64,000 bases of DNA from the NCBI GenBank assembly GCA_965279515.1, contig CBDIID010000003.1, forward strand, positions 4,512,001 to 4,576,000, in the 5' to 3' direction. The notes beneath the pieces were generated by a model that ran no database searches, was not told where the DNA came from, and saw nothing but the letters and a program-made list of their open reading frames with translations. This document shows positions 7,741-61,204 of the stretch, in pieces (position 1 is the first letter of the stretch; the number at the start of each line of letters is the position of its first letter). The position numbers and the translations under genes are program-made. Source of the DNA: Turneriella sp. (GTDB lineage Bacteria > Spirochaetota > Leptospiria > Turneriellales > Turneriellaceae).

Positions 7741-7745
7741 AACAA

Positions 7746-11182: not shown

Positions 11183-11188
11183 TTGAGC

Positions 11189-12853: not shown

Positions 12854-12854
12854 G

Positions 12855-36897: not shown

Positions 36898-36898
36898 T

Positions 36899-45939: not shown

Positions 45940-45946
45940 AGATGTT

Positions 45947-46717: not shown

Positions 46718-46742
46718 GTAGTGCACTAGTCCTAACACCAAA

Positions 46743-48949: not shown

Positions 48950-48986
48950 TTAATGTTTTTTAATGTTTTTATTTTAATGTTTTTAT
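48950..48986. repeat. Three direct repeats of TTAATGTTTTT in a divergent promoter region
   Basis: Copies start at 48950, 48960 and 48974; followed by TTGACG at 48991. Confidence 0.7.
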
Positions 48987-49029
48987 CGCCTTGACGTTCC
49001 AGGCTTGATGACCATCAGGATCACACGCT

Positions 49030-50634
49030 GTGTTGCTGAAATTTCTTATTCAAGGTAAGCGTGTCGTTTACTTTGCGTTCATTCTGACAAATCTTGTTCT
49101 TGCAGCGAGAAATCTCGAAAGCAAACCTTTCTGGATTGACGAATCCATTGCCGTGATGCCGGCAAAAAATCTTCTTCCATACCAGACTTTTGACACTAAT
49201 TTTATGCCCTGGCAGATTAAATACAATCTCTGGGATCCGGGCACTCCACTGTACAGAATTACTTTAGGCGTTTTCGTCCGGGTATTCGGTTTCTCAGAAA
49301 ACTCGACGCGGGCTTTTTCGCTCCTTTTTGGCATATTGACACTATGCGTCTTCTTTGCTTTTCTTTACAGGTTGCGGGGCTTTGATTTTGGTCTAAGGGC
49401 CAGTGCCCTGGTTGTGGTTTTGCCCGCATTTATTGGCATAAGCTCTGAAGCGCGCCATTATTCATTTGCAATGTTCTGGATTTTTTTTTCTGCGTATGCC
49501 TGTCTGCGCTTTCTTCAAGCGCAATCGGAGCGCGCCTTCATGTTTCTTTTGCTCATTCTTGCGGGATCTGTGCTTTCGCATGTCATGGCGTATTTCGTCG
49601 TACCGATTATTGTTGTTTTCCTGTTCCTGAACAATGTGAAGATCAAGCATTTAATCCTGAGATTTGGACCATTATTAATTATCTGCATTCTTGCAGTTTA
49701 TCTACTCATTTTTTTAGATACATTGCCTTTCATGCATGTAGTAAATTGCAGTAACAGGAATTTTGGCTGCGAGAAGGGGCACATGTATTATTTAGGTACG
49801 ATTTGGAAGGTGCTTGAAGGCCTCAGGATTCAGTATGAAACCTTTGTGCCGGCCGCGGCAAACTCATTTTCTTTTATGGGTGTATTTGGTCTTGCTGCTA
49901 AACAGTTGACGATCGCGCATATGGCAATTTTCCTGGGATTTTTATGCTTGCTAAGGAATTTCAGGCAAGATAAATTTGTTTTGAAGCAAGAAGGAGTGTT
50001 CCTTGCTCTCCTGCTGTTACCGTTGGCAATTCTGTCGGTGCGCGAATATAAGGCCCACAAGTATTTTTTGGTTTATGCCACACCGGTTATCGGTTATATC
50101 ATGGCGTACGCCTTTGATTTCTTCCGGAGCTATCCCACCCATTTCAGGCATTTGTCAGAAATATTCTTTTTTCTCGCAATTGCGGCTTCGCTGCACTTTA
50201 ATATTAGTGAAATCATAATATCTCCCCGATTATATTTCCTCGATTTCGGGAAGAAATTGTCTTTACCAAGGCGGGATAATTTTGAGCGAATTGATGCGCA
50301 GGTAAGATATTTACGCGCTAATGCCCGCCCTACTGATAAGATTGTTGCAACCATGGATGACGCTAGCCTCAGTCATTATTTGGGCCGATTTGTTTTCAGC
50401 TTTTTAAATAACGGGCATGACGATGGTTTTTTTCTGGATTTGTTACGGAAGGCGGAAAAAAGCAAGACGCGGGTATATTTCATTAATATGGTAGAGTCAA
50501 ATAACCACTGCCTGACGGATGAGCCTGAACCTCGTTCCATAGATTGCCGGACAAAGTACCGGGTATTTTTTGAGCGTTGCACTTCGGGATTAGATAAGAG
50601 TTGCATTGAAATTAAGCCTCAGAACCTGCCTTGA
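49030..50634 (+). CDS. GT-C glycosyltransferase (GT39 / PMT-like)
   Basis: FWIDES after TM1, PLY..L..F..VFGFSE..RAFS, S.EARHYS, SH; many TM helices; Cys-containing C-terminal domain. Confidence 0.85.
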   Translation: MLLKFLIQGKRVVYFAFILTNLVLAARNLESKPFWIDESIAVMPAKNLLPYQTFDTNFMPWQIKYNLWDPGTPLYRITLGVFVRVFGFSENSTRAFSLLFGILTLCVFFAFLYRLRGFDFGLRASALVVVLPAFIGISSEARHYSFAMFWIFFSAYACLRFLQAQSERAFMFLLLILAGSVLSHVMAYFVVPIIVVFLFLNNVKIKHLILRFGPLLIICILAVYLLIFLDTLPFMHVVNCSNRNFGCEKGHMYYLGTIWKVLEGLRIQYETFVPAAANSFSFMGVFGLAAKQLTIAHMAIFLGFLCLLRNFRQDKFVLKQEGVFLALLLLPLAILSVREYKAHKYFLVYATPVIGYIMAYAFDFFRSYPTHFRHLSEIFFFLAIAASLHFNISEIIISPRLYFLDFGKKLSLPRRDNFERIDAQVRYLRANARPTDKIVATMDDASLSHYLGRFVFSFLNNGHDDGFFLDLLRKAEKSKTRVYFINMVESNNHCLTDEPEPRSIDCRTKYRVFFERCTSGLDKSCIEIKPQNLP

Positions 50635-50778
50635 GGAAGATCCCGGATTAAACCTTTAGTAACTTCAGCAAATGAGCAAAGGAACGCCGATGCGGAGATG
50701 TGAGCGAAGACACCGTCACTTGGTGCATTAGGATTGACAAGATTCGCGGCGGAAAGATACCTGCTGGGTTCAGTTGGC

Positions 50779-51555
50779 ATGGAGATTTACCCGATTCGCA
50801 AGATTTCCTATACCAACCTTACTCTGGACGGGCTTCTGGGTTTACAGCAGCCGGTGAAAATTCAGGGCTTCAAACCGTGGACGAACGTTTTTGAGAAAAA
50901 ACGTTTCATCAGAAAAATACACGATATGACGATGGATGTCTATAAATTGACAGGCTATGACCTTGCCGTTTCAGGCAAAGATGGTATCCGTTACCGACAT
51001 TCTGGTAAACCAGGCAAGGCATCACGACGGCCGCACTATATGGCGCAAACCATTGCTGACCACGAAAGATTTTTCTCAGAATTCCGTGGTATTCCTTTTG
51101 GTTGTCATGAGAGTTCTTACTTTAAAGCAAGGGTGTGGGTTGGCACCAAAGGAACGCGTACGCCGTTGCATCGCGACTTGGCTCATAATCTTCTCCTGTT
51201 GATTACGGGGAATAAGAGCATACGCCTTGTGGCGCCTTCGGCAAAACGCTTTGTTTATTCGCACAAACTTTGCAGCAGGACCCCGAATTTTGCCGAGCTT
51301 AACCTGCATAGGCCCGATTTCCGCCGTCATCCGCTCGCAAACAATCTGACGATCTACGAAAGCCGGCTTGTACCCGGAGAAATTCTCTATATACCACCCC
51401 TTTGGTGGCATGATGTCCGGAACACAGAACTCTCTGAGAGTATTAATTTCTGGTTTGCACCGTTTGGAATCTATTCCATAGCTGCAGGACTGGCGAATTT
51501 TCTGAATTCGACGATACGCATCTGGACGCGTCGGTCAAATGAATATGAAAAATAG
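50779..51555 (+). CDS. JmjC / cupin-8 Fe(II)/2-oxoglutarate oxygenase
   Basis: VWVG..GT.TPLHRD (HxD), GNK, PGEILYIPPLWWHDV, SINFW; start at ATG 50779 or TTG 50734. Confidence 0.88.
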   Translation: MEIYPIRKISYTNLTLDGLLGLQQPVKIQGFKPWTNVFEKKRFIRKIHDMTMDVYKLTGYDLAVSGKDGIRYRHSGKPGKASRRPHYMAQTIADHERFFSEFRGIPFGCHESSYFKARVWVGTKGTRTPLHRDLAHNLLLLITGNKSIRLVAPSAKRFVYSHKLCSRTPNFAELNLHRPDFRRHPLANNLTIYESRLVPGEILYIPPLWWHDVRNTELSESINFWFAPFGIYSIAAGLANFLNSTIRIWTRRSNEYEK

Positions 51556-51570
51556 CAGCGTGATTTTGGC

Positions 51571-52425
51571 ATGAGTAGTGGGCACCCAGCCCGTGATGTT
51601 TCTTTCGCCCAGCTTCTGCTCGGCGTGCCGGTCTTAGGCGCAACGATCTTCCCTTTGTGTGCGCTGATTTTCAAGTTTTTGCGCGCGGAGGGCGTTCTGC
51701 TTGCCATAAATTTTTCGCTGCTTTGGTATCCGGGGAAGCAAGAAATTCTGCACACGTTTTCGGCAATGCTCTTGTCGACGCTGGTCCTGGCTCAACTCTA
51801 TGGTTTCAACGATGTTTTGGATGCGGCGAATGATATCAGGGATCAAGATAAGAGATCCGAAATCGCAGCATTAATTCTCAAAAATTACGCAGCCTTCGTC
51901 GCTGCAGCAACAATTTGGGCGATTGGATTGCTGCTGGGTGCTTACTTTCTTTTTCCCAAAGCATTGCCGGGAGTCACAGCCATGCTGGTGATCAATATGC
52001 TTTATTCGATGATCTTTAAAGGAGTGCCGGTGGCTGATGTTGTTGTCGTCGCTTTTTGGGGTGGGTGTTTCCCTATGTTGCTTGGAGAGCCCGTGGACAT
52101 AGGGTTAATGGTTATTGTTGGGGCTATGACCGGTGTCAGCCACGTATGGCAGACCATGCGCGATAAAGATGCTGATGCCTCGGGTGGTATTAAGACCATT
52201 GCGGTCTTTTCGCGGTTCTGGGCAATAACTGCCGTTTTTCTATTCAGTTTCCTTATCGCCGCGATAACCGTCGGGCGCCTTTCTGGGGCGCAGACAATTT
52301 GCGCGGTGCTATTATGTGCCTCGCCATTATTTCTTTATTTTACCATGACCAGAATACGCAGTATCTGGGTTCTGACGAAAGTCGCCTTTGCGGTACTCTG
52401 GGTAATGATCTTATGGTTTCAATGA
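51571..52425 (+). CDS. UbiA-family prenyltransferase
   Basis: YGFNDVLDAANDIRD (NDxxDxxxD), YS..FKG, RDKDADASGGIKTIAV; 8-9 TM helices. Confidence 0.85.
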   Translation: MSSGHPARDVSFAQLLLGVPVLGATIFPLCALIFKFLRAEGVLLAINFSLLWYPGKQEILHTFSAMLLSTLVLAQLYGFNDVLDAANDIRDQDKRSEIAALILKNYAAFVAAATIWAIGLLLGAYFLFPKALPGVTAMLVINMLYSMIFKGVPVADVVVVAFWGGCFPMLLGEPVDIGLMVIVGAMTGVSHVWQTMRDKDADASGGIKTIAVFSRFWAITAVFLFSFLIAAITVGRLSGAQTICAVLLCASPLFLYFTMTRIRSIWVLTKVAFAVLWVMILWFQ

Positions 52426-52510
52426 AAAGGCTGGTCGCATTCTGCGCTTGCGACGTTACCCCTAACGGATTATCGTTCGTGCCTGCACATCCAGTCCTTT
52501 GACTTGTTTT

Positions 52511-53542
52511 TCAAAGCGAACCATAACCGGAATAAAGGCCAAGCAGGGATGAGAGTGGTTCGGTGAAAAGAAGATTTAGCTGAAGATATGGACCACAAAT
52601 GCAGCTATTACAGGGTTTTTTACCGTCATACGATTTCATCCACTCGTCGCGCAGCATGTTCACACCCGGTGTAGTCTTTTTAATCAGAGCACATGGATAT
52701 GCGGTGCCTTTGGAGTCAATGTAGATATACCCGTATCCAGCAGCGCAGTGGTTCTTCTCAAGGTTGGTCCGGATTTCGCGGTAATCCTTCCAGGCTATTA
52801 CCGATTCGATGTACCGTCGCGAGTTGGCTATCACGCGGGTCGTTTTCTGGAGAGTGAGAAGGTTTTTCCAAATGTCCCGATAGTGTTCGTTCGTAAATTC
52901 TGCCGAGAAGTTACCGCGGATGATGTCGGTGACGGGCGCCAAGGTCGAAACCCCTTTTATTTGAAAATGGAGCTTGAAACGGTATTTTTCTGCAAGTTCG
53001 ATGAGCTTAGGAATGCCCTCCGCGCTCTTCTCGTCGACGACGGTGATGGCAACCAGAGGGATGCCTCGCCTGCGAATGTCGGCGATCGCCTCGATGACGC
53101 CTATTGAAGATCCCGGGCCACGGTTTTTCTCGTGCAACTCAGCTGGACCGTCAAGGCTCGTGAAGGCGAAATCAATCTTGGTGAACACCTCCGGTTTATC
53201 GGCGTAGAGGAGCAGGTTTGAATTCAGCGAAACGTAGAAACCTCGTTTTTTAGCCAGGGTGATGATATCGCCGATGTCATCGCGAAGCAGCGGTTCACCC
53301 CCTGTAAGACCGAGGCGATAGATGCCGCTCTTGCGCAGGTTGTCGAACAAAAGGGATATTTCATCCAGGGTTAGTTCGCGGTCCTTGAGAAACGGGGAAT
53401 TGCAGTATCTACAGGTCAGGTTGCATCGGTTGCAAACCACAAAAACCGCTGAGAGGGGCCTGGGCCGATTTAGGTAACGGAAGTTTACGAAGCTGCGTGC
53501 GAAATGTGCACCGGCCTTCAGGTTATCCAGTGTGCTGGGCAT
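52511..53542 (-). CDS. Radical SAM enzyme with SPASM/twitch domain
   Basis: CNLTCRYC, TGGEPLLR, SLDG...H...RG, CAAG..YIDSKG..YPC..CNSC. Confidence 0.93.
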   Translation of the reverse strand: MPSTLDNLKAGAHFARSFVNFRYLNRPRPLSAVFVVCNRCNLTCRYCNSPFLKDRELTLDEISLLFDNLRKSGIYRLGLTGGEPLLRDDIGDIITLAKKRGFYVSLNSNLLLYADKPEVFTKIDFAFTSLDGPAELHEKNRGPGSSIGVIEAIADIRRRGIPLVAITVVDEKSAEGIPKLIELAEKYRFKLHFQIKGVSTLAPVTDIIRGNFSAEFTNEHYRDIWKNLLTLQKTTRVIANSRRYIESVIAWKDYREIRTNLEKNHCAAGYGYIYIDSKGTAYPCALIKKTTPGVNMLRDEWMKSYDGKKPCNSCICGPYLQLNLLFTEPLSSLLGLYSGYGSL

Positions 53543-54428
53543 AATTTTGTTGGCGGGCTACACACCACGCCTCTCCGCCGTTTTCGGAAAGTAACATTTG
53601 GTTATTTGAGGAAAAGTTTTCCAGAATCTCCCCGACTGGATCGGAGAGGAAATCCGCCACGTCCTTATCCTTGAGAACGGCTGGGCAGAACCTTAATTTT
53701 CCCGCTGTATTGATATGGAGATATAGGTTCGACATCGGTGGGCATTTTACGCCTGTGTCGCCTTCGTATTCCGGGTCATAAGACTGTATAAAGGTGAATC
53801 CAAGCCGTGCTGCAGCTTCGCGGCACTTCTCAAATATTTCCACAGCCTCGAGGCCGCGCCGCCACGGATTGCCACGTCCGGTGCTCTCCCAGATGCGAAA
53901 GCGGCTGAGTCCCGCGTCGTTGAGCTCTGCGAACATTTCGGGAATTTTGACGAGATTGTACTGGCCCACTGTGATGGTCGCTGTCACTTCGAGGCCGACT
54001 GCAAGCGCCGCGCGAATACCTTTCTGCTGCTCGTTGAATGCTCCCGGTATACCGTGCTGCGCATCGTGGAGTTCACTGCCCTGGTAGTTAACCTGTACCT
54101 GTTTGACTTTTTCGGTACTGAGGAAGTCAGCGAGCCGCTGCAGATTACCGCCATGCGTCACTACGTGTGTTAGGAAATCATGGCTGCGCGTTTCCCTGAC
54201 AAACGATTCGAATTCGGGATGCTCCGTTGGCTCGCCGCCCGACAGGGTGACCTGCAAAATACCGATGTCGCGTAATTTACGCAGAATTAATTTGAAATCT
54301 TCTAACCGCATTTCGTCAGTCAGATGGCCGTTAAATCCGCCATAACACCAGCCGCAACGGTGTGTGCAGCGGCTGGTGATGTTGATATAAGCCCACAGCG
54401 GCCGGCCGCTGAATTGGTCCAGCTTCAT
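53523..54428 (-). CDS. Radical SAM enzyme with twitch-like C-terminus
   Basis: ITSRCTHRCGWC, LSGGEPTEHP, CPP..LHINTAGKLRFC; start MKLDQF at 54428. Confidence 0.92.
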   Translation of the reverse strand: MKLDQFSGRPLWAYINITSRCTHRCGWCYGGFNGHLTDEMRLEDFKLILRKLRDIGILQVTLSGGEPTEHPEFESFVRETRSHDFLTHVVTHGGNLQRLADFLSTEKVKQVQVNYQGSELHDAQHGIPGAFNEQQKGIRAALAVGLEVTATITVGQYNLVKIPEMFAELNDAGLSRFRIWESTGRGNPWRRGLEAVEIFEKCREAAARLGFTFIQSYDPEYEGDTGVKCPPMSNLYLHINTAGKLRFCPAVLKDKDVADFLSDPVGEILENFSSNNQMLLSENGGEAWCVARQQNYAQHTG

Positions 54429-54509
54429 TCTCGAAGAGTATTGTTCAGCTTTCGAGAATGAGATCAAACACATCCGGAACCTAAATACAGGTCGTGTGCA
54501 CTCAAGCAA

Positions 54510-55307
54510 TCAGAAAAGAAGAATCCGGGGCAGAAGTATGCACAGCCACGCCGTCGCTTGCGTGGCTTTTAAGGCAAGCCACGCCTTATGCGAGAAACCA
54601 GCCAGCGCCCGCACACCGCCGCCTGCGAGGGCCAGCAAAGCGGCCCAGACAAAACCTTCGATCAGAAAAGCGCATGAAGCACCTGCCGTGGCAAAGTAGT
54701 AACCGGCGCTTTGCAGCCGGGGCGAATAAACCGCTGAGGTTGAAATACCGGCCGCGGTGTCCACACCCAGGTCACGCTGCATCTGAAAAGTATGGTTCAT
54801 CGCCAGCATAAATCCGGCTGCAAGTTTGAGGGTAAGGGGCGCCGCCGGGCAATACGCGTGGATAAAAAATGGCCCCCAAAGAAAGACCAGGAGAAGATCG
54901 AGACCGGGTCTTCCTTTTGCACCCAGGTTATACGACGTGCTAAGCGCGAAGGTTGCTGAGAGGCTGAGAAGGTGAGCAAGCGAAATTTGCCAGGCAAACC
55001 CGAGCAGAACCAGCGAATATGCCCCGTTCAGCAGATACGCATACGCCGGATACGCAGCGAGCGTTTTTAGCCAGGCGGCGGACCTGCGGGGATCGCGAAG
55101 GTCTGCCGGAGCGTCGTGGATGTCGTTCAGTGCGTACATGACTGCCAGGCCCGAGGCGGCCAAAACTAAGGTATGCGCACCATGGGTCACGGAAGTATAC
55201 AACCAGAGGAGAAAGGCGGTTAAACCCAGAAGTGCCCCTTCACCTTTTCTGAACCGGGAACCGAGGGAGAACAGGGGTGCGCACAAGAGATAAAGAAAAC
55301 GCATCAT
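54510..55307 (-). CDS. UbiA-family prenyltransferase (paralog of 51571-52425)
   Basis: YALNDIHDAPADLRD, Y..GAKGRPGLD, QRDLGVDTAAGISTSAV. Confidence 0.82.
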   Translation of the reverse strand: MMRFLYLLCAPLFSLGSRFRKGEGALLGLTAFLLWLYTSVTHGAHTLVLAASGLAVMYALNDIHDAPADLRDPRRSAAWLKTLAAYPAYAYLLNGAYSLVLLGFAWQISLAHLLSLSATFALSTSYNLGAKGRPGLDLLLVFLWGPFFIHAYCPAAPLTLKLAAGFMLAMNHTFQMQRDLGVDTAAGISTSAVYSPRLQSAGYYFATAGASCAFLIEGFVWAALLALAGGGVRALAGFSHKAWLALKATQATAWLCILLPRILLF

Positions 55308-56100
55308 ACGGTCTGTGCAGTATCGGTGGCTAGCGGTTTTACCCAGGCGTACTTATTGACACCGATGATTTTTCTCAGATAGAATGATCCGGCCGCAAGC
55401 AACTCATTGAGATTCGCCGGGGCGAACCAATGGTTTATGCTCGTGGCCTTTTCCATGTTTACAATGTTGTGCCACCAAAAAGGCGGAATATAGATGAGTT
55501 CAACCGCTTCGATGGTTGCGAGCCGCACGCTTTTCGGAAAGCCGTCTGTGCCTGGGGCGCGCAGATCGACCCGGGCAAAATACGGTGCCTTGGGAAAAAG
55601 GGAATGTCGGTACACTTCGGCTCCATTTCGGGGCTCGAGCATCAGGATGTCTTTTGCCCTTGCAGTGATGAGGATAAGCGGTTGCCCCGTATATCGCGGT
55701 GCGATGGCGTTCTGCTCGAGCCACCCGCAAGCGAGAGATGGTCGCGGAACCAAGCGAGCTTGTCGCATGCATGGGGTACGGGCAGGTTCCTGCTGAGCGC
55801 AGGTAGCAGGTTGCTGACAGATCCGGAAAAATAATAATCATCCCAGATGGTGAGCCGGTTCATGATTTCCCGGCCGCTAAATGTCGCGATCAAAAAACTG
55901 TTTGGCCCTGAAAGATCGAGCTTGTGTCCGTCGAGTTTTGCTGCCGTAATTCTCAAACTTTGCAGGCTTGCCAAAAGATAACGCTGCGTTAACCACCCCA
56001 CGGAAGGGACTCCCGTAAGTTTCAGGGGTTTCCGCGCATTCATGATCCGCCGGATATCGGAAGACGGGAAGCACGCGTTAGGTACATTCAATTCTCGCAC
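55304..56100 (-). pseudogene. Frameshifted JmjC / cupin-8 oxygenase (paralog of 50779-51555)
   Basis: 5' ORF ends RTPSHRDIRGN..LQGQK then stop; 3' ORF in another frame carries ILMLEP..VY..ELIYIPPFWWHNI..SINHWFAP; frame change near 55650-55685. Confidence 0.8.
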
Positions 56101-56162
56101 GCAGAATTTTCTGAATATTCGATACAGAGAGAGTCAACTCTAAAATTGATCCCGGAACAGGA

Positions 56163-57617
56163 ATGGATTCAAATTCAAAAACGGACGGTACCCGCGCGCT
56201 TTTGGTCGTAGCGGCTTTTGCCGTCATAGCGGCCTTTCTCCTCGGCCGCACCGAGCGGAACTTTGACGAAGGCGTATATATCCAGCAGGCGAAACTCATC
56301 AGCACCGGTAAATTTCCTTTCGTGGATTTTTTCCACCATCAGTTCCCGCTTTACATCTATATCCTCGGTGGCTGGATTTTTCTTGGGTTCGAAAGCTTCG
56401 AGGCATGCCGCCTGCTTTCGCTGCTCTTCGTTTGCGCGGCGGCCTGGATGCTGGCGGAGATCCCGCGGCTGAATGGCCGTCCGGGGGCGGGGCCTTGGAT
56501 CGCCGCGCTTTTTCTTTTTTCACCGCTTACCCGGTTTTCCCTGATGGCTATGCCGACAGGACTCATGCTGTTTCTGATCACCGCGGGCTTCTGGAGCTTT
56601 TTTCGCGGCGGACGGTCGCTCTGGATGTCGGCCTTTTTTTTCAGCGCCGCACTTTTTGCGAAGCCGGTCGTATTGCCCGCGCTTTTGGTCCCCCCGGTTT
56701 TGCTCATGGCACAGCGCCGCTGGCGGGACTTGTTACTTTTTTCTAGCGGCGGTTTTCTTTTTTGCTTGGTTCTTGGAGGGGCAGTGCTTGCGGCAAGCAG
56801 TGGCAGCTTCATACAATTGTTTGCCGCCCAGTCGTCGCGTTTTTCGGGCAAACATGTGTTTCAGGTGCTACGCACAATGCCGCTCTTCTCCGAGTATCTT
56901 AGCGCGTCTAGTATTACATCCATGCTTGAGTATAACATTATAGAGCATACTCGGAATTTTTTTTCGCCTTTTCCGTTCAACCCGGGATTGCTTTATACTG
57001 TATTGGGTATCGCCGGAGCGGTTAAGCTTGCCATAACAGAACCGCGAAGGCTGCTATTTCCCGGAATCTGGTTCCTCCTTACTTTAGTTTTTCTCGTCTT
57101 CTTGATGAACCCCTCGTTTGATCACTATCAGGTCCAGTATGTTGCGCCGCTGGTGCTACTGGCCGTCGAAGTTCTGCGACCCGATGAAGAGGGTCGATGG
57201 AAAATCATCTTATTCTTAGTGATTGCAGCTACAGTGGTCTCCGGGTCTTTCTGGAAGGTGATGTCGCCGGTGACCGTTGCTCATCTGCGTGAGCGTTTTA
57301 AACCCGGCGAAGTCGTTGTGGCGCTGAACCCCCTGATTCATGCAGTGGCCCGCACCAATCCGGTTTGTGACGTGATAGATCCAATTAACACGTACGGAGA
57401 TACAGCACTCCCGGGGATCAAGCGTACGCAGGATTGGGAAAAATTTCTGATATCCGACGCGCAGATTAAAGAATGCCTCAGGAATCATCCCGATTCCAAG
57501 GTTTATCTACACCCGGTTTTCCGCGCCTTTGTCCATAAAGAACTTGCGGAATTCGCCGTTACTTTGCCTGAATGGAGGTTAGTTTCAGAACCAGCAAATA
57601 TCAAAAAGTTCCCGTAA
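56163..57617 (+). CDS. GT-C glycosyltransferase (ArnT / GT83-like)
   Basis: NFDEGVY after TM1, G..PFVDFFHHQFPL, RLLS, AK, FDHY; many TM helices. Confidence 0.82.
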   Translation: MDSNSKTDGTRALLVVAAFAVIAAFLLGRTERNFDEGVYIQQAKLISTGKFPFVDFFHHQFPLYIYILGGWIFLGFESFEACRLLSLLFVCAAAWMLAEIPRLNGRPGAGPWIAALFLFSPLTRFSLMAMPTGLMLFLITAGFWSFFRGGRSLWMSAFFFSAALFAKPVVLPALLVPPVLLMAQRRWRDLLLFSSGGFLFCLVLGGAVLAASSGSFIQLFAAQSSRFSGKHVFQVLRTMPLFSEYLSASSITSMLEYNIIEHTRNFFSPFPFNPGLLYTVLGIAGAVKLAITEPRRLLFPGIWFLLTLVFLVFLMNPSFDHYQVQYVAPLVLLAVEVLRPDEEGRWKIILFLVIAATVVSGSFWKVMSPVTVAHLRERFKPGEVVVALNPLIHAVARTNPVCDVIDPINTYGDTALPGIKRTQDWEKFLISDAQIKECLRNHPDSKVYLHPVFRAFVHKELAEFAVTLPEWRLVSEPANIKKFP

Positions 57618-57653
57618 TCCTGCTGGCATATTCCCCGGGAGAGGCAAGGGTTC

Positions 57654-58370
57654 TTAATAACTCAGTTTGCGGTTTGTGCGCATTGCATACTCCTCGAGTT
57701 CGTCCGGAGTTCCCAAATGCTCAAATGTTTCAGTAGGGAATGCAACTACAGAGCCCGTGCGTTTAATCGTGAAATTGTACACCGGAGAGATACTGAACAC
57801 TTTCGCCGCAAGGGCCGCTTTAGCATCGGTAACGAAATCTTTCCCGCTTCGCCACCAATAGGGTCCGGTAGTGGACCATGGACTAAACGGATCTTTTTCT
57901 CTCGTTTCCAAAACTTCGGTATCTCTTAATCTACAATAAGAATATTGCGGGTTCACAGCCCTCCGGATGGTTACGCCGCCCGAGGCGCGGCGGGAACGGA
58001 AAAAATCCAGCGCCCGCACCAGCTCGTCCGGGTCAATCAGGGCGTCGCAATCCGCGATCAGGATTTCATTTTCTTCGCTTATGCTTTGACTGCCAAAAAG
58101 CAGGGAAATTGTTTCTAGTGGACCGCGCGTATACGTCGCGAGGGGCAAGAATGAGATCTCACGGTTTTTTTGAATTTTCGCAAATTCTTTCTCGAATTCC
58201 GGCCGAATGATTACGAGATAACTGGCCCCCGGAGGGTATGAGTGAATAGCCCATTCGAAGAGCGTTTTTCCGTCCAGCCGTATGAACGGCTTATATGTTT
58301 GAATCCCCGCGTGCCTGAATCTTTCACCCGTTCCGCCGATCGGAAATATGACTGTCAGGGGATTATTCAT
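57654..58370 (-). CDS. Sugar-phosphate nucleotidyltransferase (NTP_transferase family)
   Basis: PIGGTGERF...YKPFI, TRGP, ILIADCD, YSY, EKDPFS, TGPY.W, LGTPDEL. Confidence 0.88.
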   Translation of the reverse strand: MNNPLTVIFPIGGTGERFRHAGIQTYKPFIRLDGKTLFEWAIHSYPPGASYLVIIRPEFEKEFAKIQKNREISFLPLATYTRGPLETISLLFGSQSISEENEILIADCDALIDPDELVRALDFFRSRRASGGVTIRRAVNPQYSYCRLRDTEVLETREKDPFSPWSTTGPYWWRSGKDFVTDAKAALAAKVFSISPVYNFTIKRTGSVVAFPTETFEHLGTPDELEEYAMRTNRKLSY

Positions 58371-58692
58371 CGACTATTACCTTATCCGACGCTCCGACTG
58401 ATGGAACTTTTACCACGATAACTTCACAATCGGTAAGAAAAACCGGTTTCGCGGCTTCTTTAGGTTCAAAAGTAAAAATCTGCTTCGCATGCAGCGTGAT
58501 GCCATTGACCATCATCGAACCGCTAAGTAAGAGATTTATTTCCATTGCGGTTTTTTGGTAATGATTGGGCCAGTCTTCCCCTTGCCGGTGGAACTTATAG
58601 CCTATTTCGAATGCTTCAGATCTAAAGACGCTAGGCTCAAAATTTCCAATAAAATAACCCAAGTGCATATCATCGAGTGAATAGATTTTCAT
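58363..58692 (-). CDS. Small cupin-fold protein
   Basis: G.FIGNFEPS, HYQ...EINLLLSG, P.F..DC..IVVKVPS..DK; translationally coupled on both sides. Confidence 0.75.
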   Translation of the reverse strand: MKIYSLDDMHLGYFIGNFEPSVFRSEAFEIGYKFHRQGEDWPNHYQKTAMEINLLLSGSMMVNGITLHAKQIFTFEPKEAAKPVFLTDCEVIVVKVPSVGASDKVIVDE

Positions 58693-59741
58693 TTTGAACT
58701 CTGTAGGGCATCGAGAAAAGCACGCGCCCCGGCTTCTATCCCGTTTTTATGGCCATGTATGGCCCCTCCGGCACTGATCATAATATCATTGCCGAATATT
58801 CTTCGCAATTTCCCCACGAGGCCCGGATGTGCGCCGCACGAGAAACTTGGAATAGTGTTTCTAAGTGCTTTGATTCTACTATGTAGAACAGCGGGGCTTT
58901 CATTGAGGTAACCGCCGAGCATCCCCACGTGAGAAAAATCGCACCCTATAAGGTTGATAATACGGCACAAGACATCAAATTGAATAGCGTTGGGGCCCGT
59001 GGTTAAGACTTTATCGCCCGATTTTTGAAAAAAGATTGCGATATTTACAAGCTTCCGGATCGCGTGAAAGGTGCCGAAGCCGCTCCAAATATTCATGTGT
59101 ACGGCTTTTATTCCCTGCTCTGCAGCCAGTTGCGCCTTTTCGATTGCTTCATTGCCGTCGCCGGTAATACACGGCGCGTAGATCATGCGGAATTCACCAA
59201 GCGCATCCCTAATGATCCGAATTCTTTCGGCAAATCTCGCGAAATTCTGGTCATTCAGGATCTCATCTTCTTTGATGAAGTCTGCTCCTCCCTTGGCCAT
59301 CTTTCGGCAAATTCCGGCAAACTCACTGGCGGCAAGACCTATTTTCGGTTTAACAATACCGCCTATGAGGGGCCGATCGTAGACCTGTAAGAAATCCCGA
59401 ATTCCCTGAATTCCGAACCGGGGGCCAGGAAACTGATGCTCGATAGCTGAGAGATCCAGGCCCACGAGTTTACATTCCTGGATATGATCTATATCCAGCT
59501 GCCCACCCATGATTACACTCAAAATATGACTAATGCCCGAGTTGCTGAATATTTCCGCAGGAAACCGTACCGTAATACGGTTTCCGCGGTATGAGCCTTG
59601 GGCAATAAAGGCGCCGAGTTTTTCATCCAATGGAGTACGAATATCCGGATTCCCGATAGTCTGGCCGATGCAAATATCACGGACTGCCTTGCGCATATTT
59701 TTTGCACGAACGCTGTAAGTGGCCGTAATAAATCGATCCAT
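58689..59741 (-). CDS. RuBisCO-like protein (form IV-type large-subunit homolog), compact 350 aa
   Basis: FPGPRFGIQGIR, RPLIGGIVKPKIGL, GGADFIKEDE, GCDFSHVG, PSFSCG.HPG, FGND....GGAIHGH..G..AGARA. Confidence 0.93.
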   Translation of the reverse strand: MDRFITATYSVRAKNMRKAVRDICIGQTIGNPDIRTPLDEKLGAFIAQGSYRGNRITVRFPAEIFSNSGISHILSVIMGGQLDIDHIQECKLVGLDLSAIEHQFPGPRFGIQGIRDFLQVYDRPLIGGIVKPKIGLAASEFAGICRKMAKGGADFIKEDEILNDQNFARFAERIRIIRDALGEFRMIYAPCITGDGNEAIEKAQLAAEQGIKAVHMNIWSGFGTFHAIRKLVNIAIFFQKSGDKVLTTGPNAIQFDVLCRIINLIGCDFSHVGMLGGYLNESPAVLHSRIKALRNTIPSFSCGAHPGLVGKLRRIFGNDIMISAGGAIHGHKNGIEAGARAFLDALQSSK

Positions 59742-59843
59742 CAGGAGCTTTTTTGAAACTAATCAGATATCAACTTGTCAATAAGTTTCATCGGAGATTG
59801 TTCTTGACTCTCGACGGAATACAAATCAAGTTGCGTCAAAAAA

Positions 59844-60605
59844 ATGTCAAAAGTTCGCCGACGCGTCAATACTTCTATTGTTATTCCGTGTTATAATGAA
59901 GAGGAGAATATTGAAAAAATGCTTGCTGGGTTTAGTGCAGCTTTGCGGGACGATTTTTTCGGCATAGAAATTATTTTTGTTAACAACGGATCCACAGACC
60001 GTACAGGTGAACTGTTGCAAAAAAAAATAGCTGACCATAAATTCGCGAAGGCTATTCACCTGGCGCACAATTTTGGTTACGGCCACGGCATATTAGCAGG
60101 TCTTAACAATGCGGATGGAAGTCTTGTGGGATACATGCACGGTGACATGCAGGTTCTTCCGGCATCAGTCATCGAAATCGCACGTTCACTATCATCGATC
60201 AAAATCAACGCACCATTGTTCTTTAAGGCGCGAAGATATGGTAGGAGTTTTTTTGAAGTTGTTTTTACTCTTTGTATGACTTTGTTTTGCTCGTTCTTAT
60301 TTAAATTCTGGTTAGCCGATATTAACGCTCAACCCACCTTTTTCAGAAAAAATCTCCTGGAAGATTTGACTGAGATTCCCGGGGATTTCTCCTTTGACCT
60401 TTTCTTATTCCTGATTGCAAAAAAAAGAGGCATTCAGTTGATCCGGAAGCCTGTTCGGGTACATAAAAGAATCGGAGGGATTTCCAGTTGGAATCATGGC
60501 ATCATTTCAAAGTTTGTATTATCATGGTCCTTTGTTAAGGCGGCCCTGAGTATCAGGAAAACTTTTCGGATTACAAGTAGTAAGCATCAGGTTCAAAAGA
60601 TATGA
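59844..60605 (+). CDS. GT2 glycosyltransferase (polyprenol-phosphate sugar synthase-like)
   Basis: SIVIPCYNEEENI, VNNGSTD.T, N.GYG..I..G, HGDMQ, DINAQP, FSFDL. Confidence 0.9.
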   Translation: MSKVRRRVNTSIVIPCYNEEENIEKMLAGFSAALRDDFFGIEIIFVNNGSTDRTGELLQKKIADHKFAKAIHLAHNFGYGHGILAGLNNADGSLVGYMHGDMQVLPASVIEIARSLSSIKINAPLFFKARRYGRSFFEVVFTLCMTLFCSFLFKFWLADINAQPTFFRKNLLEDLTEIPGDFSFDLFLFLIAKKRGIQLIRKPVRVHKRIGGISSWNHGIISKFVLSWSFVKAALSIRKTFRITSSKHQVQKI

Positions 60606-61204
60606 ACGGCAAAACGCACATTATCGCCCATAGAGTTAATACGGCCCTTGAGCTTTCGCGGATTCCGCCCGAGTTTGGAGTTGAAATTGATCTCCGCGAT
60701 CGGGAACATGGAATCATCCTGCAACATGATCCCTATCTTGGAGGGGAATTACTCGAGGACTTTCTCACTCATTACCGGCATGGTACGCTGATCTTGAATG
60801 TCAAGAGCGAACGGGTTGAGTTTAAGGCCATTGAAATTTTGCAAAGACTTAAGATCGATGAGTATTTTTTCCTGGATTCGAGCTTTACAATGATCAACCA
60901 CTTTACGCGGCTGAATAACAAGAGATTTGCGCTCCGTTTTTCGGAATTTGAGAGCATTGAGACATGCCTGGCTATGGCTGGCAGGCTGGAATGGGTTTGG
61001 GTGGACAGCATTGAAAAACTACCGCTCAGCCCGGAGGTATTTGCGCTTCTTAAGAGCAATGGCTTTAGAGTATGCTTGGCTTCTCCTGAGCTTTTAGGCA
61101 GGCCGGGGGAAATTTTCCAATACCACGAGTTTCTCCGCAAGAACGGGATTTTACCGGATGCAGTCTGCACGAAACTGGGGAATGCAGCGTTATGGCAAAG
61201 TTGA
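60602..61204 (+). CDS. Glycerophosphodiester phosphodiesterase / PI-PLC-like TIM-barrel protein
   Basis: IIAHRVN, GVEIDLR, HDP, ILNVK, RFSEFE, WVWVD, CLASPEL, AVCTK; ATGA overlap with the GT2. Confidence 0.82.
   Translation: MNGKTHIIAHRVNTALELSRIPPEFGVEIDLRDREHGIILQHDPYLGGELLEDFLTHYRHGTLILNVKSERVEFKAIEILQRLKIDEYFFLDSSFTMINHFTRLNNKRFALRFSEFESIETCLAMAGRLEWVWVDSIEKLPLSPEVFALLKSNGFRVCLASPELLGRPGEIFQYHEFLRKNGILPDAVCTKLGNAALWQS

What the first reader, a model, noticed from the sequence alone, without database searches (positions are those of the whole stretch)
57654..61204. RuBisCO-like protein in a sugar-activation and glycosylation module
Seen: a 350-aa RuBisCO-like protein (RLP) heads a translationally coupled operon RLP > cupin > nucleotidyltransferase. 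It is divergent from GT2 > GDPD-like and next to a GT-C transferase. No methionine-salvage (mtn) genes, phosphoribulokinase, or sugar-acid transport/catabolic genes are in the window. Known: characterised RLPs act in methionine salvage (DK-MTP-1-P enolase, MTRu-1-P isomerase) or in catabolism of branched or four-carbon sugars (apionate, hamamelose, erythronate/threonate). Inference: this RLP is anabolic. It would rearrange a ketose phosphate into an unusual, possibly branched, sugar phosphate that is isomerised by the cupin, NDP-activated, loaded on polyprenol-P by the GT2 and transferred outside the membrane by GT-C enzymes.
Basis: partly seen in the sequence, partly recalled or inferred. Interest (0 to 1): 0.92.

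Follow-up and report, generated by a model that had tools for sequence, protein, structure and literature searches.

The report
RuBisCO-like enzyme in sugar-activation cassette
A relative of RuBisCO that cannot fix CO2 sits in a small acquired gene cassette with a sugar-activating enzyme, and the same pairing recurs in many bacteria, tiny archaea and hundreds of phage contigs, so this branch of the family probably helps build an unusual activated sugar for surface glycans, a job never tested for it.

Summary
At 57654-61204 a 350-aa RuBisCO-like protein (RLP), a 109-aa cupin and a 238-aa nucleotidyltransferase overlap start-to-stop on the minus strand. They are divergent from a GT2 glycosyltransferase and a 200-aa protein with a GDPD fold, and a divergent GT-C transferase lies on the left. 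The right neighbour is 2-oxoglutarate dehydrogenase E1, not a transferase.

The RLP belongs to the 'Form IV-like' clade of Jaffe et al. 2019 (phages, Beckwithbacteria; function unknown). It keeps the metal and carbamate site but lacks N123, H294, R295 and K334.

Among loci with both flanks, a related nucleotidyltransferase lies within 1.5 kb of the RLP in 34 of 35 genome loci, 68 of 70 viral loci and 48 of 50 metagenome loci. It does so in 0 of 27 loci of other RuBisCO forms. The cupin and a miniature GDPD-like protein usually travel with them, and fusions link the parts.

The cassette lies in a low-GC 17-kb island between hisI and sucA and was not found in 13 of 13 congeners. The genome has MtnA, MtnB and MtnC elsewhere.

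An anabolic, donor-building role is well supported. The substrate, the product and the order of steps remain inferred. This scan found the same module before on other DNA.

The parts
58689..59741 (-). RuBisCO-like protein, 350 aa, 'Form IV-like' clade
   Evidence: PF00016 at 131.9 bits. It is the only RuBisCO-fold gene in the genome. It sits in a clade with SH-aLRT 99 together with phage and Beckwithbacteria sequences. K131, K133, K157, D159, E160 and H271 are kept; G80, Q239, K240, D243 and Y278 replace N123, H294, R295, H298 and K334.
58363..58692 (-). Small metal-type cupin, 109 aa, start overlaps the RLP stop (ATGA)
   Evidence: The family profile hits solved cupins. Motif H44-x-(H/Q)46...E51...G58. 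It lies within 1.5 kb of the RLP in 9/35, 55/70 and 30/50 loci with both flanks. It is fused to the nucleotidyltransferase in 8 viral loci.
57654..58370 (-). Nucleotidyltransferase, 238 aa, overlaps the cupin gene by 8 nt
   Evidence: PF12804 at 27.8 bits. The family profile A2 best matches PDB 4evw, 'NDP-sugar pyrophosphorylase', at 130.4 bits, followed by ManC, GlmU and RmlA. 23 of 28 family members hit sugar-1-P nucleotidyltransferase models. It lies within 1.5 kb of the RLP in 34/35, 68/70 and 48/50 loci.
59742..59843 (.). 102-bp divergent spacer between the RLP operon and the GT2 operon
   Evidence: Coordinates; sequence. Promoters were not tested.
59844..60605 (+). GT2 glycosyltransferase, 253 aa, candidate polyprenyl-phosphate sugar synthase (GtrB/DPM1-like)
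   Evidence: PF00535 at 71.4 bits. The best NCBIfam rows include PgfS, ArnC and PpgS but also PgaC and others, and all are below cut-off. Homologues sit next to the GDPD-like gene in L164, L252 and L254, and in L252 directly after GtrA.
60602..61204 (+). GDPD/PI-PLC-fold protein, 200 aa, start overlaps the GT2 stop
   Evidence: AF2 pLDDT 91.6. Foldseek top hits are GDPDs at E 1.2e-6. The family holds 3798 proteins. It shares the H-R-x-N / E-x-D / H-D motifs with the miniature GDPD-like partner of the clade.
56163..57617 (+). Divergent GT-C-type membrane glycosyltransferase, 484 aa, convergent with the nucleotidyltransferase
   Evidence: 9 hydrophobic windows, three of them overlapping each other. 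270 homologues; 22 of 30 scanned carry PMT_2 or GT87. Membership of the module is inferred from position only.
44275..61204 (.). 17-kb low-GC glycosylation island between hisI and sucA; the RLP cassette is its right-hand, lowest-GC part
   Evidence: hisI and sucA are 18-19 bp apart in 2 of 5 congeners, about 1.65 kb apart in 2, and 17.5 kb apart in one whose insert shares the UbiA, radical-SAM, GT2 and GT-C genes but not the RLP cassette. GC is 0.484 for the island, 0.459 for the cassette and 0.533 for the rest of the window.

Best explanation
The RLP is the first committed enzyme of a small, horizontally mobile cassette that makes a nucleotide-activated, carbohydrate-derived donor for surface-glycan decoration.

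Proposed steps:
1. The RLP binds a ketose phosphate. It uses its retained carbamylated lysine, Mg2+ site and K175/K177 equivalents to form an enediolate. It returns the proton elsewhere, so it epimerises or isomerises and does not carboxylate.
2. The metal cupin performs a further isomerisation.
3. The nucleotidyltransferase couples the product to an NMP.
4. In this window the divergent GtrB-like GT2 would load the sugar on polyprenyl phosphate, and the adjacent GT-C would transfer it outside the membrane.

The GDPD-fold protein handles a phosphodiester at a step that is not resolved.

Shown: gene identities, clade membership, loss of the carboxylase residues, conserved linkage, fusions and island status. 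Inferred: substrate, product, order of steps and use of the GT2 and GT-C.
For: Linkage:
- A related nucleotidyltransferase lies within 1.5 kb of the RLP in 34/35 genome, 68/70 viral and 48/50 metagenome loci with both flanks. It does so in 0/27 loci of other RuBisCO forms.
- The cupin is present in 9/35, 55/70 and 30/50 of these loci, and the miniature GDPD-like protein in 20/35, 51/70 and 37/50.

Fusions:
- nucleotidyltransferase~cupin in 8 viral loci;
- miniature GDPD~RLP in P0023.

Analogous clusters where another sugar-phosphate enzyme stands in for the RLP:
- phage Bellamy has nucleotidyltransferase~RpiB followed by the cupin;
- L252 has a kinase, a HAD phosphatase, a class II aldolase, a double nucleotidyltransferase, GtrA, the same GT2 and the same GDPD-like protein.

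Context and enzyme features:
- Neighbours are glycan genes throughout.
- The active site keeps K175, K177, K201, D203, E204 and H327. It replaces N123, H294, R295, H298 and K334 in all 48 clade rows.
- The nucleotidyltransferase resembles sugar-1-P nucleotidyltransferases.
- The closest relative (87% identity, L164) keeps GT2, GDPD-like, RLP and cupin in the same arrangement.
- The genome already has MtnA, MtnB and MtnC.
- The RLP was not found in 13/13 congeners and lies in a low-GC island.
Against: - No biochemical data exist for any member (searches; Jaffe et al. passages).
- The core cassette holds no kinase or mutase that would make a sugar-1-phosphate, so a glycosyl donor is not the only reading.
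- The window's own nucleotidyltransferase matches no NCBIfam model at E 0.001 and only just passes Pfam.
- The window lacks the miniature GDPD-like gene. Its 200-aa GDPD-fold protein belongs to a much larger family (3798 proteins) that usually accompanies the GT2 without any RLP. The GT2 and GDPD pair may therefore serve another sugar.
- The loci are related to each other, so the counts overstate independent events.
- The control loci have only about 1.5 kb of flank.
Confidence: 0.68

Rival explanations
1. The cassette makes an NDP-linked phospho-alcohol donor in the manner of CDP-ribitol. The nucleotidyltransferase activates a primary phosphate of the RLP product. GDPD-like or LicD proteins then transfer the sugar- or alditol-phosphate to a glycan as a phosphodiester. 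In that case the GT2 and GT-C in this window serve another sugar.
For: - LicD (PF04991, 147 bits) lies beside the RLP in the 4 Legionella/Tatlockia loci, which lack the miniature GDPD.
- GDPD-like genes are often present in 2-3 copies per viral locus, interleaved with transferases.
- The core holds no kinase or mutase for an anomeric phosphate.
- The window nucleotidyltransferase's only weak named hits are MobA-like and IspD.
Against: - 23 of 28 family nucleotidyltransferases resemble sugar-1-P enzymes most closely, and the best solved relative is an NDP-sugar pyrophosphorylase.
- A GDPD~RLP fusion suggests a metabolic step next to the RLP rather than a terminal transferase.
- No GDPD-fold enzyme is known to me to use an NDP-alcohol as donor (recalled, not tested).
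Confidence: 0.2
2. The cassette diverts a 5-substituted ribose-1-phosphate (5-methylthio- or 5-deoxy-ribose-1-P, made from SAM by-products). It passes through the ketose-1-phosphate, and the RLP acts as a C3 epimerase. The result is a xylo-configured sugar-1-P, which is nucleotide-activated and passed on through GT2 and GT-C. This resembles the methylthioxylose cap of mycobacterial lipoarabinomannan.
For: - Known RLP substrates are 1-phosphates of this series (established knowledge of MtnW and the R. rubrum RLP; recalled).
- The glycine-rich site that binds the C1 phosphate in RuBisCO is kept, while the C5-phosphate site is changed to K, D, H and Y.
- The architecture of nucleotidyltransferase + epimerisation + GT2 lipid-donor synthase + GT-C matches the MTX pathway. 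I recall that model from Angala et al. 2017. Only the MtxS/MtxT statements were seen, as passages.
- The own genome has MtnA to make the ketose-1-P.
Against: - A complete 1.37-Mb Pelagibacter genome carries the module but no MtnA, and its locus lacks the cupin.
- No MTA phosphorylase or nucleosidase recurs next to the module.
- The Angala paper could not be read.
- The GDPD-like partner is unexplained by this model.
Confidence: 0.1
3. It is a conventional RLP: either a methionine-salvage enolase or isomerase, or a sugar-acid catabolic decarboxylase that merely happens to lie in a glycan island.
For: The NCBIfam MtnW models are among the best partial matches (162.2 and 127.6 bits).
Against: - All scores are far below cut-off: 409 and 513.6 for MtnW; OiaX scores 116 against 700.
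- It forms a separate clade with SH-aLRT 99.
- The genome has MtnC acireductone synthase beside MtnB, which makes MtnW unnecessary.
- The gene was not found in 13/13 congeners.
- Linkage to a nucleotidyltransferase is near-universal.
- No transporter, kinase or dehydrogenase of sugar-acid pathways lies in 31948-64000.
Confidence: 0.03
4. It is a true CO2-fixing or nucleotide-salvage RuBisCO (Form III-like).
For: The Form III models give the top partial scores (170 bits; PDB 2cwx at 193 bits). K201, D203 and E204 are kept.
Against: - K334 is Y, H294 is Q, R295 is K, N123 is G and T65 is N in all 48 clade rows.
- The score of 170 is far below the cut-off of 497.
- The true Form II and III rows in the same alignment keep all 18 sites in at least 2 of 3 and in all 5 rows respectively, as does the single Form I row.
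Confidence: 0.01

Closest known systems
'Form IV-like' RuBisCO-related proteins of phages and Beckwithbacteria (Jaffe, Castelle, Dupont & Banfield 2019, PMC6389311; abstract and passages read)
   Same: It is the same clade by my tree. A Beckwithbacteria MAG sequence (L027) and 18 IMG/VR sequences fall with the window protein in one group with SH-aLRT 99. T4-like hallmark genes (PhoH, UvsX, gp41-like helicase) lie on the viral contigs. The pattern of partial loss of RuBisCO residues is also the same.
   Different: The paper treats them as phage and CPR proteins of unclear function. In the passages I read it does not report the nucleotidyltransferase, cupin and GDPD linkage. This window's protein is a shorter (350 aa) chromosomal member of a branch of the clade that holds only cellular rows, next to the Nonomuraea and Elusimicrobia sequences. 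Their own sequences were not in my tree by accession.
Methionine-salvage RLPs (MtnW DK-MTP-1-P enolase; R. rubrum MTRu-1-P isomerase with its cupin methylsulfurylase)
   Same: The RuBisCO fold is shared, with the carbamate-Mg site used for enolisation of a ketose-1-phosphate. The R. rubrum route also pairs an RLP with a small cupin (recalled from Erb et al. 2012 and Warlick et al. 2012, seen only as references).
   Different: Scores are below the MtnW cut-offs. It is a separate clade from the MtnW-like (sub-cut-off) rows; no MtnW row over its cut-off was in my tree. It has no lysine at the N123 position. No mtn genes are adjacent, and MtnC is present elsewhere. The partner is a nucleotidyltransferase.
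NDP-heptose type pathways (isomerase, kinase, HAD phosphatase, nucleotidyltransferase)
   Same: The logic is the same: a ketose phosphate is remodelled and then nucleotide-activated for glycans. The RLP-less sister clusters (Bellamy, L252) hold exactly these enzyme classes beside the same nucleotidyltransferase, cupin, GT2 and GDPD-like genes.
   Different: In the RLP cassette the kinase and phosphatase are missing, and an RLP plus a GDPD-like protein stand in their place. How the activated phosphate arises is therefore unknown.
Gtr / Arn / mycobacterial MTX three-part systems (polyprenyl-P sugar synthase GT2, flippase, GT-C transferase)
   Same: A GT2 of this type and a GT-C flank the cassette. 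In L252, GtrA precedes the homologous GT2. MtxS makes the MTX lipid donor (passage).
   Different: No GtrA was detected in the island part scanned here. The GT2 is below every equivalog cut-off. Use of the RLP product by this GT2 is inferred from position alone.

Membership tests
RuBisCO large-chain superfamily | Catalytic barrel domain (PF00016) over the curated cut-off | tested here: met
   131.9 bits against a cut-off of 30.1. The PDB profile search gives 193 bits to 2cwx.
RuBisCO large-chain superfamily | Carbamylated lysine and metal ligands (K201, D203, E204) plus K175 | tested here: met
   K157, D159, E160 and K131 are invariant in the clade. Carbamylation itself is not testable here.
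Carboxylating RuBisCO (Forms I-III) | K334, H294, R295, N123 and T65 present | tested here: not met
   They are Y278, Q239, K240, G80 and N31 in the window and in all 47 other clade rows. The Form I and Form III rows keep all 18 sites in every row; the Form II rows keep them in at least 2 of 3 rows.
Carboxylating RuBisCO (Forms I-III) | Score over the NCBIfam Form III or Form II cut-offs | tested here: not met
   TIGR03326 scores 170 against 497.45; NF010002 scores 74.8 against 489.
MtnW (DK-MTP-1-P enolase) | Score over the equivalog cut-off | tested here: not met
   NF007095 scores 162.2 against 409; TIGR03332 scores 127.6 against 513.6.
MtnW (DK-MTP-1-P enolase) | Part of a salvage route that lacks MtnC | tested here: not met
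   The genome encodes MtnB with MtnC acireductone synthase (235 bits against 128) on contig 1 and MtnA on contig 3.
OiaX / apiose-type catabolic RLPs | Score over the equivalog cut-off and clade membership | tested here: not met
   NF042437 scores 116 against 700. True OiaX rows (772-786 bits) form a separate group with support 100.
'Form IV-like' clade (Jaffe et al. 2019) | Groups with phage and Beckwithbacteria sequences, apart from other RLPs | tested here: met
   One clade of 48 rows has SH-aLRT 99 and holds the window protein, the Beckwithbacteria MAG (L027) and 18 IMG/VR rows. The clade HMM scores 448-550 bits for full-length members against at most 227 for outsiders. The paper's own sequences were not included.
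Cupin superfamily | Motif G-x5-H-x-H-x3,4-E-x6-G and profile similarity to cupins | tested here: met
   H44, E51 and G58 are invariant and H46 nearly so; the window protein has Q46. The PDB profile hits cupins at 2.8e-6 to 7e-4. There is no Pfam hit for the window protein itself. The fold was not modelled.
GDPD / PI-PLC-like phosphodiesterases | Pfam PF03009 match | tested here: not met
   No Pfam family at E up to 10.
GDPD / PI-PLC-like phosphodiesterases | TIM-barrel GDPD fold with the H-R, E-x-D and H-D motifs | tested here: met
   pLDDT is 91.6. The top ten Foldseek hits are almost all GDPDs, at E 1.2e-6 to 3.5e-6 and TM up to 0.71. H10, R11, E28, D30 and H42 are invariant and D43 nearly so.
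GT-C glycosyltransferases | Multi-span membrane protein homologous to PMT_2, GT39 or GT87 families | tested here: inconclusive
   The protein has no Pfam hit of its own, and pairwise comparison with the window's PMT_2 protein is not significant. However, 22 of 30 homologues (E 9e-54 to 2e-6) carry PMT_2 or GT87.
Polyprenyl-phosphate sugar synthases (GtrB/DPM1/ArnC type GT2) | GT2 domain plus an equivalog-level match or GtrA partner | tested here: inconclusive
   PF00535 is met. PgfS scores 64.4 against 500 and ArnC 46.5 against 529, both below cut-off. GtrA precedes the homologous GT2 in L252, but none was detected in the island part scanned here.

The most novel reading that the evidence does not exclude
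The Form IV-like RLPs are dedicated ketose-phosphate epimerases or isomerases. They would have turned RuBisCO's known side reaction, misprotonation of the 2,3-enediolate that gives the xylulose epimer, into their main reaction. Alternatively they would perform a carbon-skeleton rearrangement to a branched sugar.

Together with a cupin, a miniature phosphodiesterase and a dedicated nucleotidyltransferase they would make a nucleotide sugar that is not yet described. T4-like phages, giant viruses, SAR11, Legionella relatives, CPR bacteria and DPANN archaea would use it to decorate their surfaces or those of their hosts. This would be the first anabolic role for the RuBisCO fold outside CO2 fixation.
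Probability: 0.3. Interest if true: 0.9.

Novelty: new variant of a known kind. Interest (0 to 1): 0.78.

Why it matters
All RLP functions that I know of (recalled) are salvage or catabolic. A biosynthetic RLP wired to nucleotide activation would add a new reaction class to the most studied enzyme superfamily. It would also assign a function to the large phage 'Form IV-like' clade that has been open since 2019.

The cassette is abundant:
- 388 of 403 pattern-matching stretches of IMG/VR encode a relative;
- 306 or more metagenome stretches do so;
- 46 species genomes carry it, including SAR11 and Legionella relatives.

The unknown product may therefore be a common component of aquatic microbial and viral surfaces, with consequences for phage-host recognition.

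The hypothesis can be tested directly with three or four small soluble proteins.

Tried and rejected
- **Own-genome notes:** none.
- **Papers not held:** Tabita et al. 2007, for a possible identity with the 'IV-GOS' clade that I only recall, and Angala et al. 2017. Both comparisons rest on recall.
- **Deposited phages (INPHARED):** no RLP match. The cupin is found only in Synechococcus phages Bellamy and SynMITS9220M01.
- **MtnW reference:** I tried to obtain a true MtnW row for the tree. 0 of 151 genomes of the sampled phylum passed the cut-off, so the tree has only MtnW-like rows below cut-off, and no R. rubrum-type or Chlorobium-type reference.
- **DUF7796:** this frequent viral neighbour has no solved relative by sequence.
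- **APH-like kinase next to the RLP in some viral loci:** no PDB sequence match, so its possible kinship to MTR kinase is untested.
- **200-aa GDPD-fold protein versus the miniature GDPD family:** direct similarity is weak (hhalign probability 31.7%). The link rests on shared motifs and on two family members hit by the miniature-family HMM.
- **The 484-aa protein:** the word-based search found only one homologue; the full HMMER scan was needed.
- **Host MtnA idea:** I rejected the idea that a host MtnA is generally required, because one complete Pelagibacter genome lacks it.
- **UbiA, radical-SAM and JmjC genes to the left:** I considered them part of the RLP pathway and rejected that. None recurs in the 46 genome loci, and a congener has them at the same site without the RLP cassette.
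- **Taxonomy of the organism:** not determined.

Full report
**What is there**

The ORF list and family scans confirm the layout.

On the minus strand:
- a 350-aa RuBisCO-like protein at 58689-59741 (PF00016, 131.9 bits);
- a 109-aa ORF at 58363-58692;
- a 238-aa nucleotidyltransferase at 57654-58370 (PF12804, 27.8 bits against a cut-off of 27).

The first two share an ATGA stop/start. The second and third overlap by 8 nt.

Across a 102-bp spacer, on the plus strand:
- a GT2 at 59844-60605 (PF00535, 71.4 bits);
- a 200-aa ORF at 60602-61204 that overlaps it by 4 nt.

To the left, convergent with the nucleotidyltransferase, lies a 484-aa membrane protein at 56163-57617. To the right lies 2-oxoglutarate dehydrogenase E1 at 61228-63765. 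It is a core gene, not a transferase.

**Checking the labels that Pfam does not give**

*The 109-aa protein.*
- A family alignment of 28 sequences (A4) keeps H44, E51 and G58 invariant and H46 nearly so. That is the first cupin motif; the window protein has Q at 46.
- The family profile hits solved cupins: 2h0v at 2.8e-6 and the 113-aa mannose-6-phosphate isomerase 7zvm at 2.2e-4.
- The Atlas places it beside Cupin_2 clusters at 0.96. Its three nearest clusters are 72-91% viral.

*The 200-aa protein.*
- With 27 homologues it folds at pLDDT 91.6.
- Its best structural matches are glycerophosphodiester phosphodiesterases, at Foldseek E 1.2e-6 and TM 0.71.
- The Atlas agrees.

*The 484-aa protein.*
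- It shows nine hydrophobic windows, three of which overlap each other.
- The word-indexed search found one close homologue. A full HMMER scan found 270.
- 22 of 30 scanned homologues carry PMT_2 or GT87. It is best read as a divergent GT-C.

**Which RLP**

It is the only RuBisCO-fold gene in the genome. It scores far below every NCBIfam cut-off:

| Model | Score | Cut-off |
|---|---|---|
| Form III (TIGR03326) | 170 | 497 |
| MtnW (NF007095) | 162 | 409 |
| MtnW (TIGR03332) | 128 | 514 |
| OiaX (NF042437) | 116 | 700 |

Against solved structures a family profile scores almost equally for a Form III enzyme (193 bits), an uncharacterised RLP (190) and MtnW (177).

The protein search found 1341 relatives among 3661 candidates. 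Two are at 88% and 83% identity; the rest are at 54% or less.

I built a maximum-likelihood tree of 74 rows. Reference rows were labelled by their NCBIfam scores:
- the window protein;
- 29 cellular and 18 viral relatives;
- Form I (1), Form II (3) and Form III (5);
- OiaX (4) and OiaX-like (4);
- MtnW-like rows below cut-off (2);
- other rows (7).

The window protein and all 47 relatives fall in one clade with SH-aLRT 99. Within it the window protein joins a Nonomuraea and an Elusimicrobia sequence (support 94). A Beckwithbacteria MAG sequence nests among the viral rows.

This matches the 'Form IV-like' group of Jaffe et al. 2019. From the abstract and passages I read, they describe about 80 phage sequences plus Beckwithbacteria, divergent from other RLPs, with function unclear.

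Limits of the tree:
- It has no MtnW over cut-off, because 0 of 151 sampled genomes had one.
- It has no R. rubrum-type or Chlorobium-type reference.
- It used the quick search.

**Active site**

In a MAFFT alignment anchored on the Form I row, all 48 clade rows agree at these positions.
- Kept: K175, K177, K201, D203, E204, H327, S379 and G381.
- Replaced: N123 by G, H294 by Q, T65 by N and K334 by Y in all 48 rows. R295 is K in all but two rows and H298 is D in all but three.

In the same alignment the Form I row and all five Form III rows carry the RuBisCO residue at all 18 positions, and the Form II rows do so in at least two of three.

From established knowledge of RuBisCO (recalled):
- The retained set is the enolisation apparatus plus the glycine-rich site that holds the phosphate next to the carbonyl.
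- The lost set is needed for CO2 addition and for binding the distal phosphate.

This is an enolising enzyme and not a carboxylase.

**Neighbourhood conservation**

I collected three sets of loci:
- 46 clade loci from species genomes: Nonomuraea, Elusimicrobia, Azospirillum, three Legionella species, Tatlockia, Francisellaceae, many Pelagibacteraceae, Patescibacteria, Woese-, Pace- and Nanoarchaeota;
- 80 of the 388 viral stretches that encode a relative, out of 403 matched;

Using HMMs built from the partners, I counted hits within 1.5 kb of the RLP.

| Partner | Genome loci, all (both flanks) | Viral loci, all (both flanks) | Metagenome loci, all (both flanks) |
|---|---|---|---|
| Nucleotidyltransferase | 42/46 (34/35) | 76/80 (68/70) | 69/80 (48/50) |
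| Miniature (~150 aa) GDPD-like protein | 23/46 (20/35) | 58/80 (51/70) | 50/80 (37/50) |
| Cupin | 11/46 (9/35) | 61/80 (55/70) | 45/80 (30/50) |

'Both flanks' means at least 1.5 kb on each side of the RLP.

In 27 loci of other RuBisCO forms and RLPs none of the three partners was found. Those loci carry only about 1.5 kb of flank. The loci are kin, so these are not independent events.

The usual viral order is nucleotidyltransferase, cupin, RLP, GDPD-like. In the window's own sub-branch it is RLP, cupin, nucleotidyltransferase, as here.

The viral contigs are real phage DNA in good part. PhoH occurs in 19 loci, a gp41-like helicase in 9 and UvsX with the T4 C-terminal domain in 8, with ThyX and glutaredoxin as well. 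Several contigs are giant-virus MAGs by name.

Other neighbours are glycan genes everywhere:
- SDR epimerases/dehydratases, GT2, GT25, GT11, GT6 and GT4;
- DegT aminotransferases, methyltransferases, WavE-like proteins and DUF7796;
- LicD in the Legionella/Tatlockia loci.

**Fusions and stand-ins**

- The nucleotidyltransferase and the cupin are one ORF of about 350 aa in 8 viral loci. One of them is an 874-aa frame that may be over-extended.
- P0023 (550 aa, 49% identical to the window RLP) is a miniature GDPD domain (residues 1-160, 134.6 bits) fused to the RLP (residues 171-544).
- No RLP was found in deposited phages. Synechococcus phage Bellamy has the cupin preceded by a nucleotidyltransferase fused to RpiB. 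It lies among a PfkB-like kinase, HAD phosphatases, a class II aldolase, a double nucleotidyltransferase, DUF7796 and glycosyltransferases.
- A same-class genome (L252) has an RLP-less version. In order it carries: GT-C fused to a PRK-family kinase, a HAD phosphatase, a class II aldolase-family protein, a 522-aa double nucleotidyltransferase (336.6 bits to the RLP-partner HMM), GtrA, a homologue of the window GT2 (150 bits) and a homologue of the window GDPD-fold protein (187 bits).

In both stand-in clusters an enzyme of sugar-phosphate isomerisation or epimerisation occupies the place of the RLP. The rest follows the logic of the NDP-heptose pathways: isomerase, kinase, phosphatase, nucleotidyltransferase (established knowledge).

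**The nucleotidyltransferase**

- The family profile best matches PDB 4evw, an 'NDP-sugar pyrophosphorylase', at 130.4 bits. ManC, GlmU and RmlA enzymes follow.
- 23 of 28 members hit the archaeal GlmU-type sugar-1-phosphate nucleotidyltransferase model, and 22 hit RmlA-long. Only 9 hit IspD.
- The window's own copy is the most divergent. It gave no NCBIfam hit at E 0.001 and an IspD hit at 0.0087.

**The GDPD-fold proteins**

*The miniature partner (alignment A3).*
- It keeps H6, R7, N19, E34, D36, H48, H68, K70 and D88.
- It hits solved GDPDs by profile at 6.9e-5.
- It folds at pLDDT 92.1.
- Its top structural matches are GDPDs, at Foldseek probability up to 0.99 but E no better than 0.02.

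*In the window.*
- No copy of the miniature partner was found here.
- The 200-aa protein belongs to another, much larger family of 3798 proteins. That family is sparse in the window's phylum, in 6 of 401 genomes.
- Of the 5 other carriers found, 3 were given a wider region. Two of these have the GT2 homologue adjacent (L252, L254) and one has a single gene between (L253).
- The two families share the N-terminal motifs (hhalign probability 31.7%). The miniature-family HMM hits two members of the large family at 6.3e-9 and 3.8e-5.
- I read the window protein as a relative that may play the same role, but this is not shown.
- The closest RLP relative (87% identity, L164) keeps GDPD-like, GT2, RLP and cupin exactly as here.

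**Island status**

- The RLP was not found in 13 of 13 same-genus genomes, 8 of which are at least 90% complete.
- hisI (43843-44274) and sucA flank a 17-kb stretch holding three GT-C-type genes, two GT2, two UbiA-type, two radical-SAM and two JmjC/cupin_8 genes plus the RLP cassette.
- In 5 congeners the hisI-sucA gap varies: 18-19 bp in two, about 1.65 kb in two and 17.5 kb in one.
- The long insert shares the UbiA-like, radical-SAM, GT2, 421-aa and TMEM260-like genes with the window. It has no RLP, cupin, partner nucleotidyltransferase or GDPD-like gene.
- GC is 0.459 for the cassette, 0.484 for the island and 0.533 for the rest of the window.

The cassette is therefore a separately acquired sub-module at a variable site. 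The UbiA and radical-SAM genes are not part of it; none recurs in the 46 genome loci.

**Not methionine salvage**

- The genome has MtnA (404 bits, over cut-off) 2.4 Mb away.
- On another contig it has an operon with MtnB (185.7 bits) and MtnC acireductone synthase (235.2 bits against 128).
- With MtnC present an MtnW is not needed (established pathway knowledge).

**How it most likely works**

*Shown:* an enolising, non-carboxylating RLP is genetically locked to a nucleotidyltransferase, usually to a cupin and a GDPD-fold protein, inside glycan loci.

*Inferred, step 1.* The RLP forms the enediolate of a ketose phosphate and reprotonates it to give an epimer or isomer. RuBisCO itself makes xylulose bisphosphate this way as a side reaction (recalled).

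*Inferred, step 2.* The cupin isomerises further.

*Inferred, step 3.* The nucleotidyltransferase activates the product.

*Inferred, step 4.* The donor is used by locus-specific transferases. In this window these would be the GtrB-like GT2 and then the GT-C.

I put 0.68 on the general statement.

Whether the donor is a glycosyl donor or a phospho-alcohol donor is open.
- For a glycosyl donor: the nucleotidyltransferase resembles sugar-1-P enzymes, and the GtrA-GT2-GT-C context exists.
- For a phospho-alcohol donor: LicD sits in the Legionellales loci, GDPD-like genes are multi-copy, and no kinase or mutase is present.

A variant that starts from 5-substituted ribose-1-phosphates, by analogy with the mycobacterial methylthioxylose cap, fits the retained and lost phosphate sites. 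It is weakened by a complete Pelagibacter genome that has the module but no MtnA.

**Literature**

No paper in the library joins RLPs with the following terms:
- cytidylyl- or nucleotidyltransferases and cupins;
- nucleotide sugars;
- giant viruses;
- 'IV-like' with phage, from 2019 on.

'IV-GOS' appears once, in a review (listing only). The GOS paper reports new RuBisCO branches without function (passages). Supplements of Jaffe et al. were not opened and may list neighbourhoods.

**Earlier notes of this scan**

I reached the reading above before looking. I then found that the scan had noted the same module before: 27 findings in at least 26 other genomes. They draw the same conclusion and name the same closest known clade.

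They are not independent evidence. One lead from them ('BcbE-like' nucleotidyltransferase) found no support in the 25 NCBIfam families listed.

What this window adds:
- a chromosomal bacterial member of a branch of the clade that holds only cellular rows;
- its insertion site;
- the larger GDPD-fold family coupled to a GtrB-like GT2;
- the RLP-less sister clusters that show which enzyme classes the RLP replaces.

Noticed in passing
window 44275-56100: The left part of the island holds a TMEM260-like GT-C, a GT2, a PMT_2 GT-C, a JmjC/cupin_8 protein, a UbiA-type protein with a weak match to decaprenyl-phosphate phosphoribosyltransferase (37.6 bits), two radical-SAM proteins, a second UbiA-like protein and a small cupin_8 protein. 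It may be a separate polyprenyl-phospho-sugar modification system. A congener has most of it at the same hisI-sucA site without the RLP cassette.
   Followed up: partly
L252 (G819:C1:186000-204000), 6097-13102: An RLP-less analogue of the cassette. In order: GT-C (GT87/PMT_2) fused to a PRK/uridine-kinase domain, a HAD phosphatase, a class II aldolase-family protein, a 522-aa double nucleotidyltransferase, GtrA, a GT2 and a GDPD-fold protein.
   Followed up: partly
L136 (Synechococcus phage Bellamy, NC_047838.1 157654-169950): Gene 206, annotated 'phosphatase', is a nucleotidyltransferase fused to RpiB. Gene 207 is the cupin. Gene 209 is a double nucleotidyltransferase. Gene 212, annotated 'phosphoheptose isomerase', matched only a PNKP-type HAD domain weakly.
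   Followed up: partly
P0023 (metagenome protein, 550 aa): A single protein joins the miniature GDPD-like domain to the RLP. I did not see its DNA, so a gene-calling artefact is not excluded.
   Followed up: no
L075, L094, L098, L100, L104-L106, L108, L129, L130, L132 (viral loci): A second conserved block follows the RLP in these phage contigs: an APH-like kinase, a 3-dehydroquinate-synthase-like protein and a short-chain dehydrogenase in all eleven, followed in eight by an unknown protein and a radical-SAM protein. It may be a cyclitol or heptose-derived branch.
   Followed up: no
L146, L148 (genomes G173, G082): Two 423-aa proteins from the phylum of a Clostridia MAG keep all 18 RuBisCO active-site residues examined. 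They group with Form III and Form I in the tree, so they are probably true carboxylases.
   Followed up: no
L005-L007 (same-family genomes G015, G019): Relatives in the window's family, but of another genus, carry Form II RuBisCO (801-844 bits against a cut-off of 489). The window's genus has none in the 13 genomes searched.
   Followed up: no
window 31948-40745: Two very large secreted or surface proteins: 1649 aa with Ig-like repeats, and 1014 aa with CarboxypepD_reg and PPC domains. An outer-membrane beta-barrel gene lies between them.
   Followed up: no
viral loci, e.g. L085 8183-8923; L136 6306-7058: DUF7796 proteins (about 246 aa) occur in 34 of 80 viral loci, often directly upstream of the nucleotidyltransferase and in several copies. 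They have no solved relative by sequence. They are candidate transferases for the unknown donor.
   Followed up: partly
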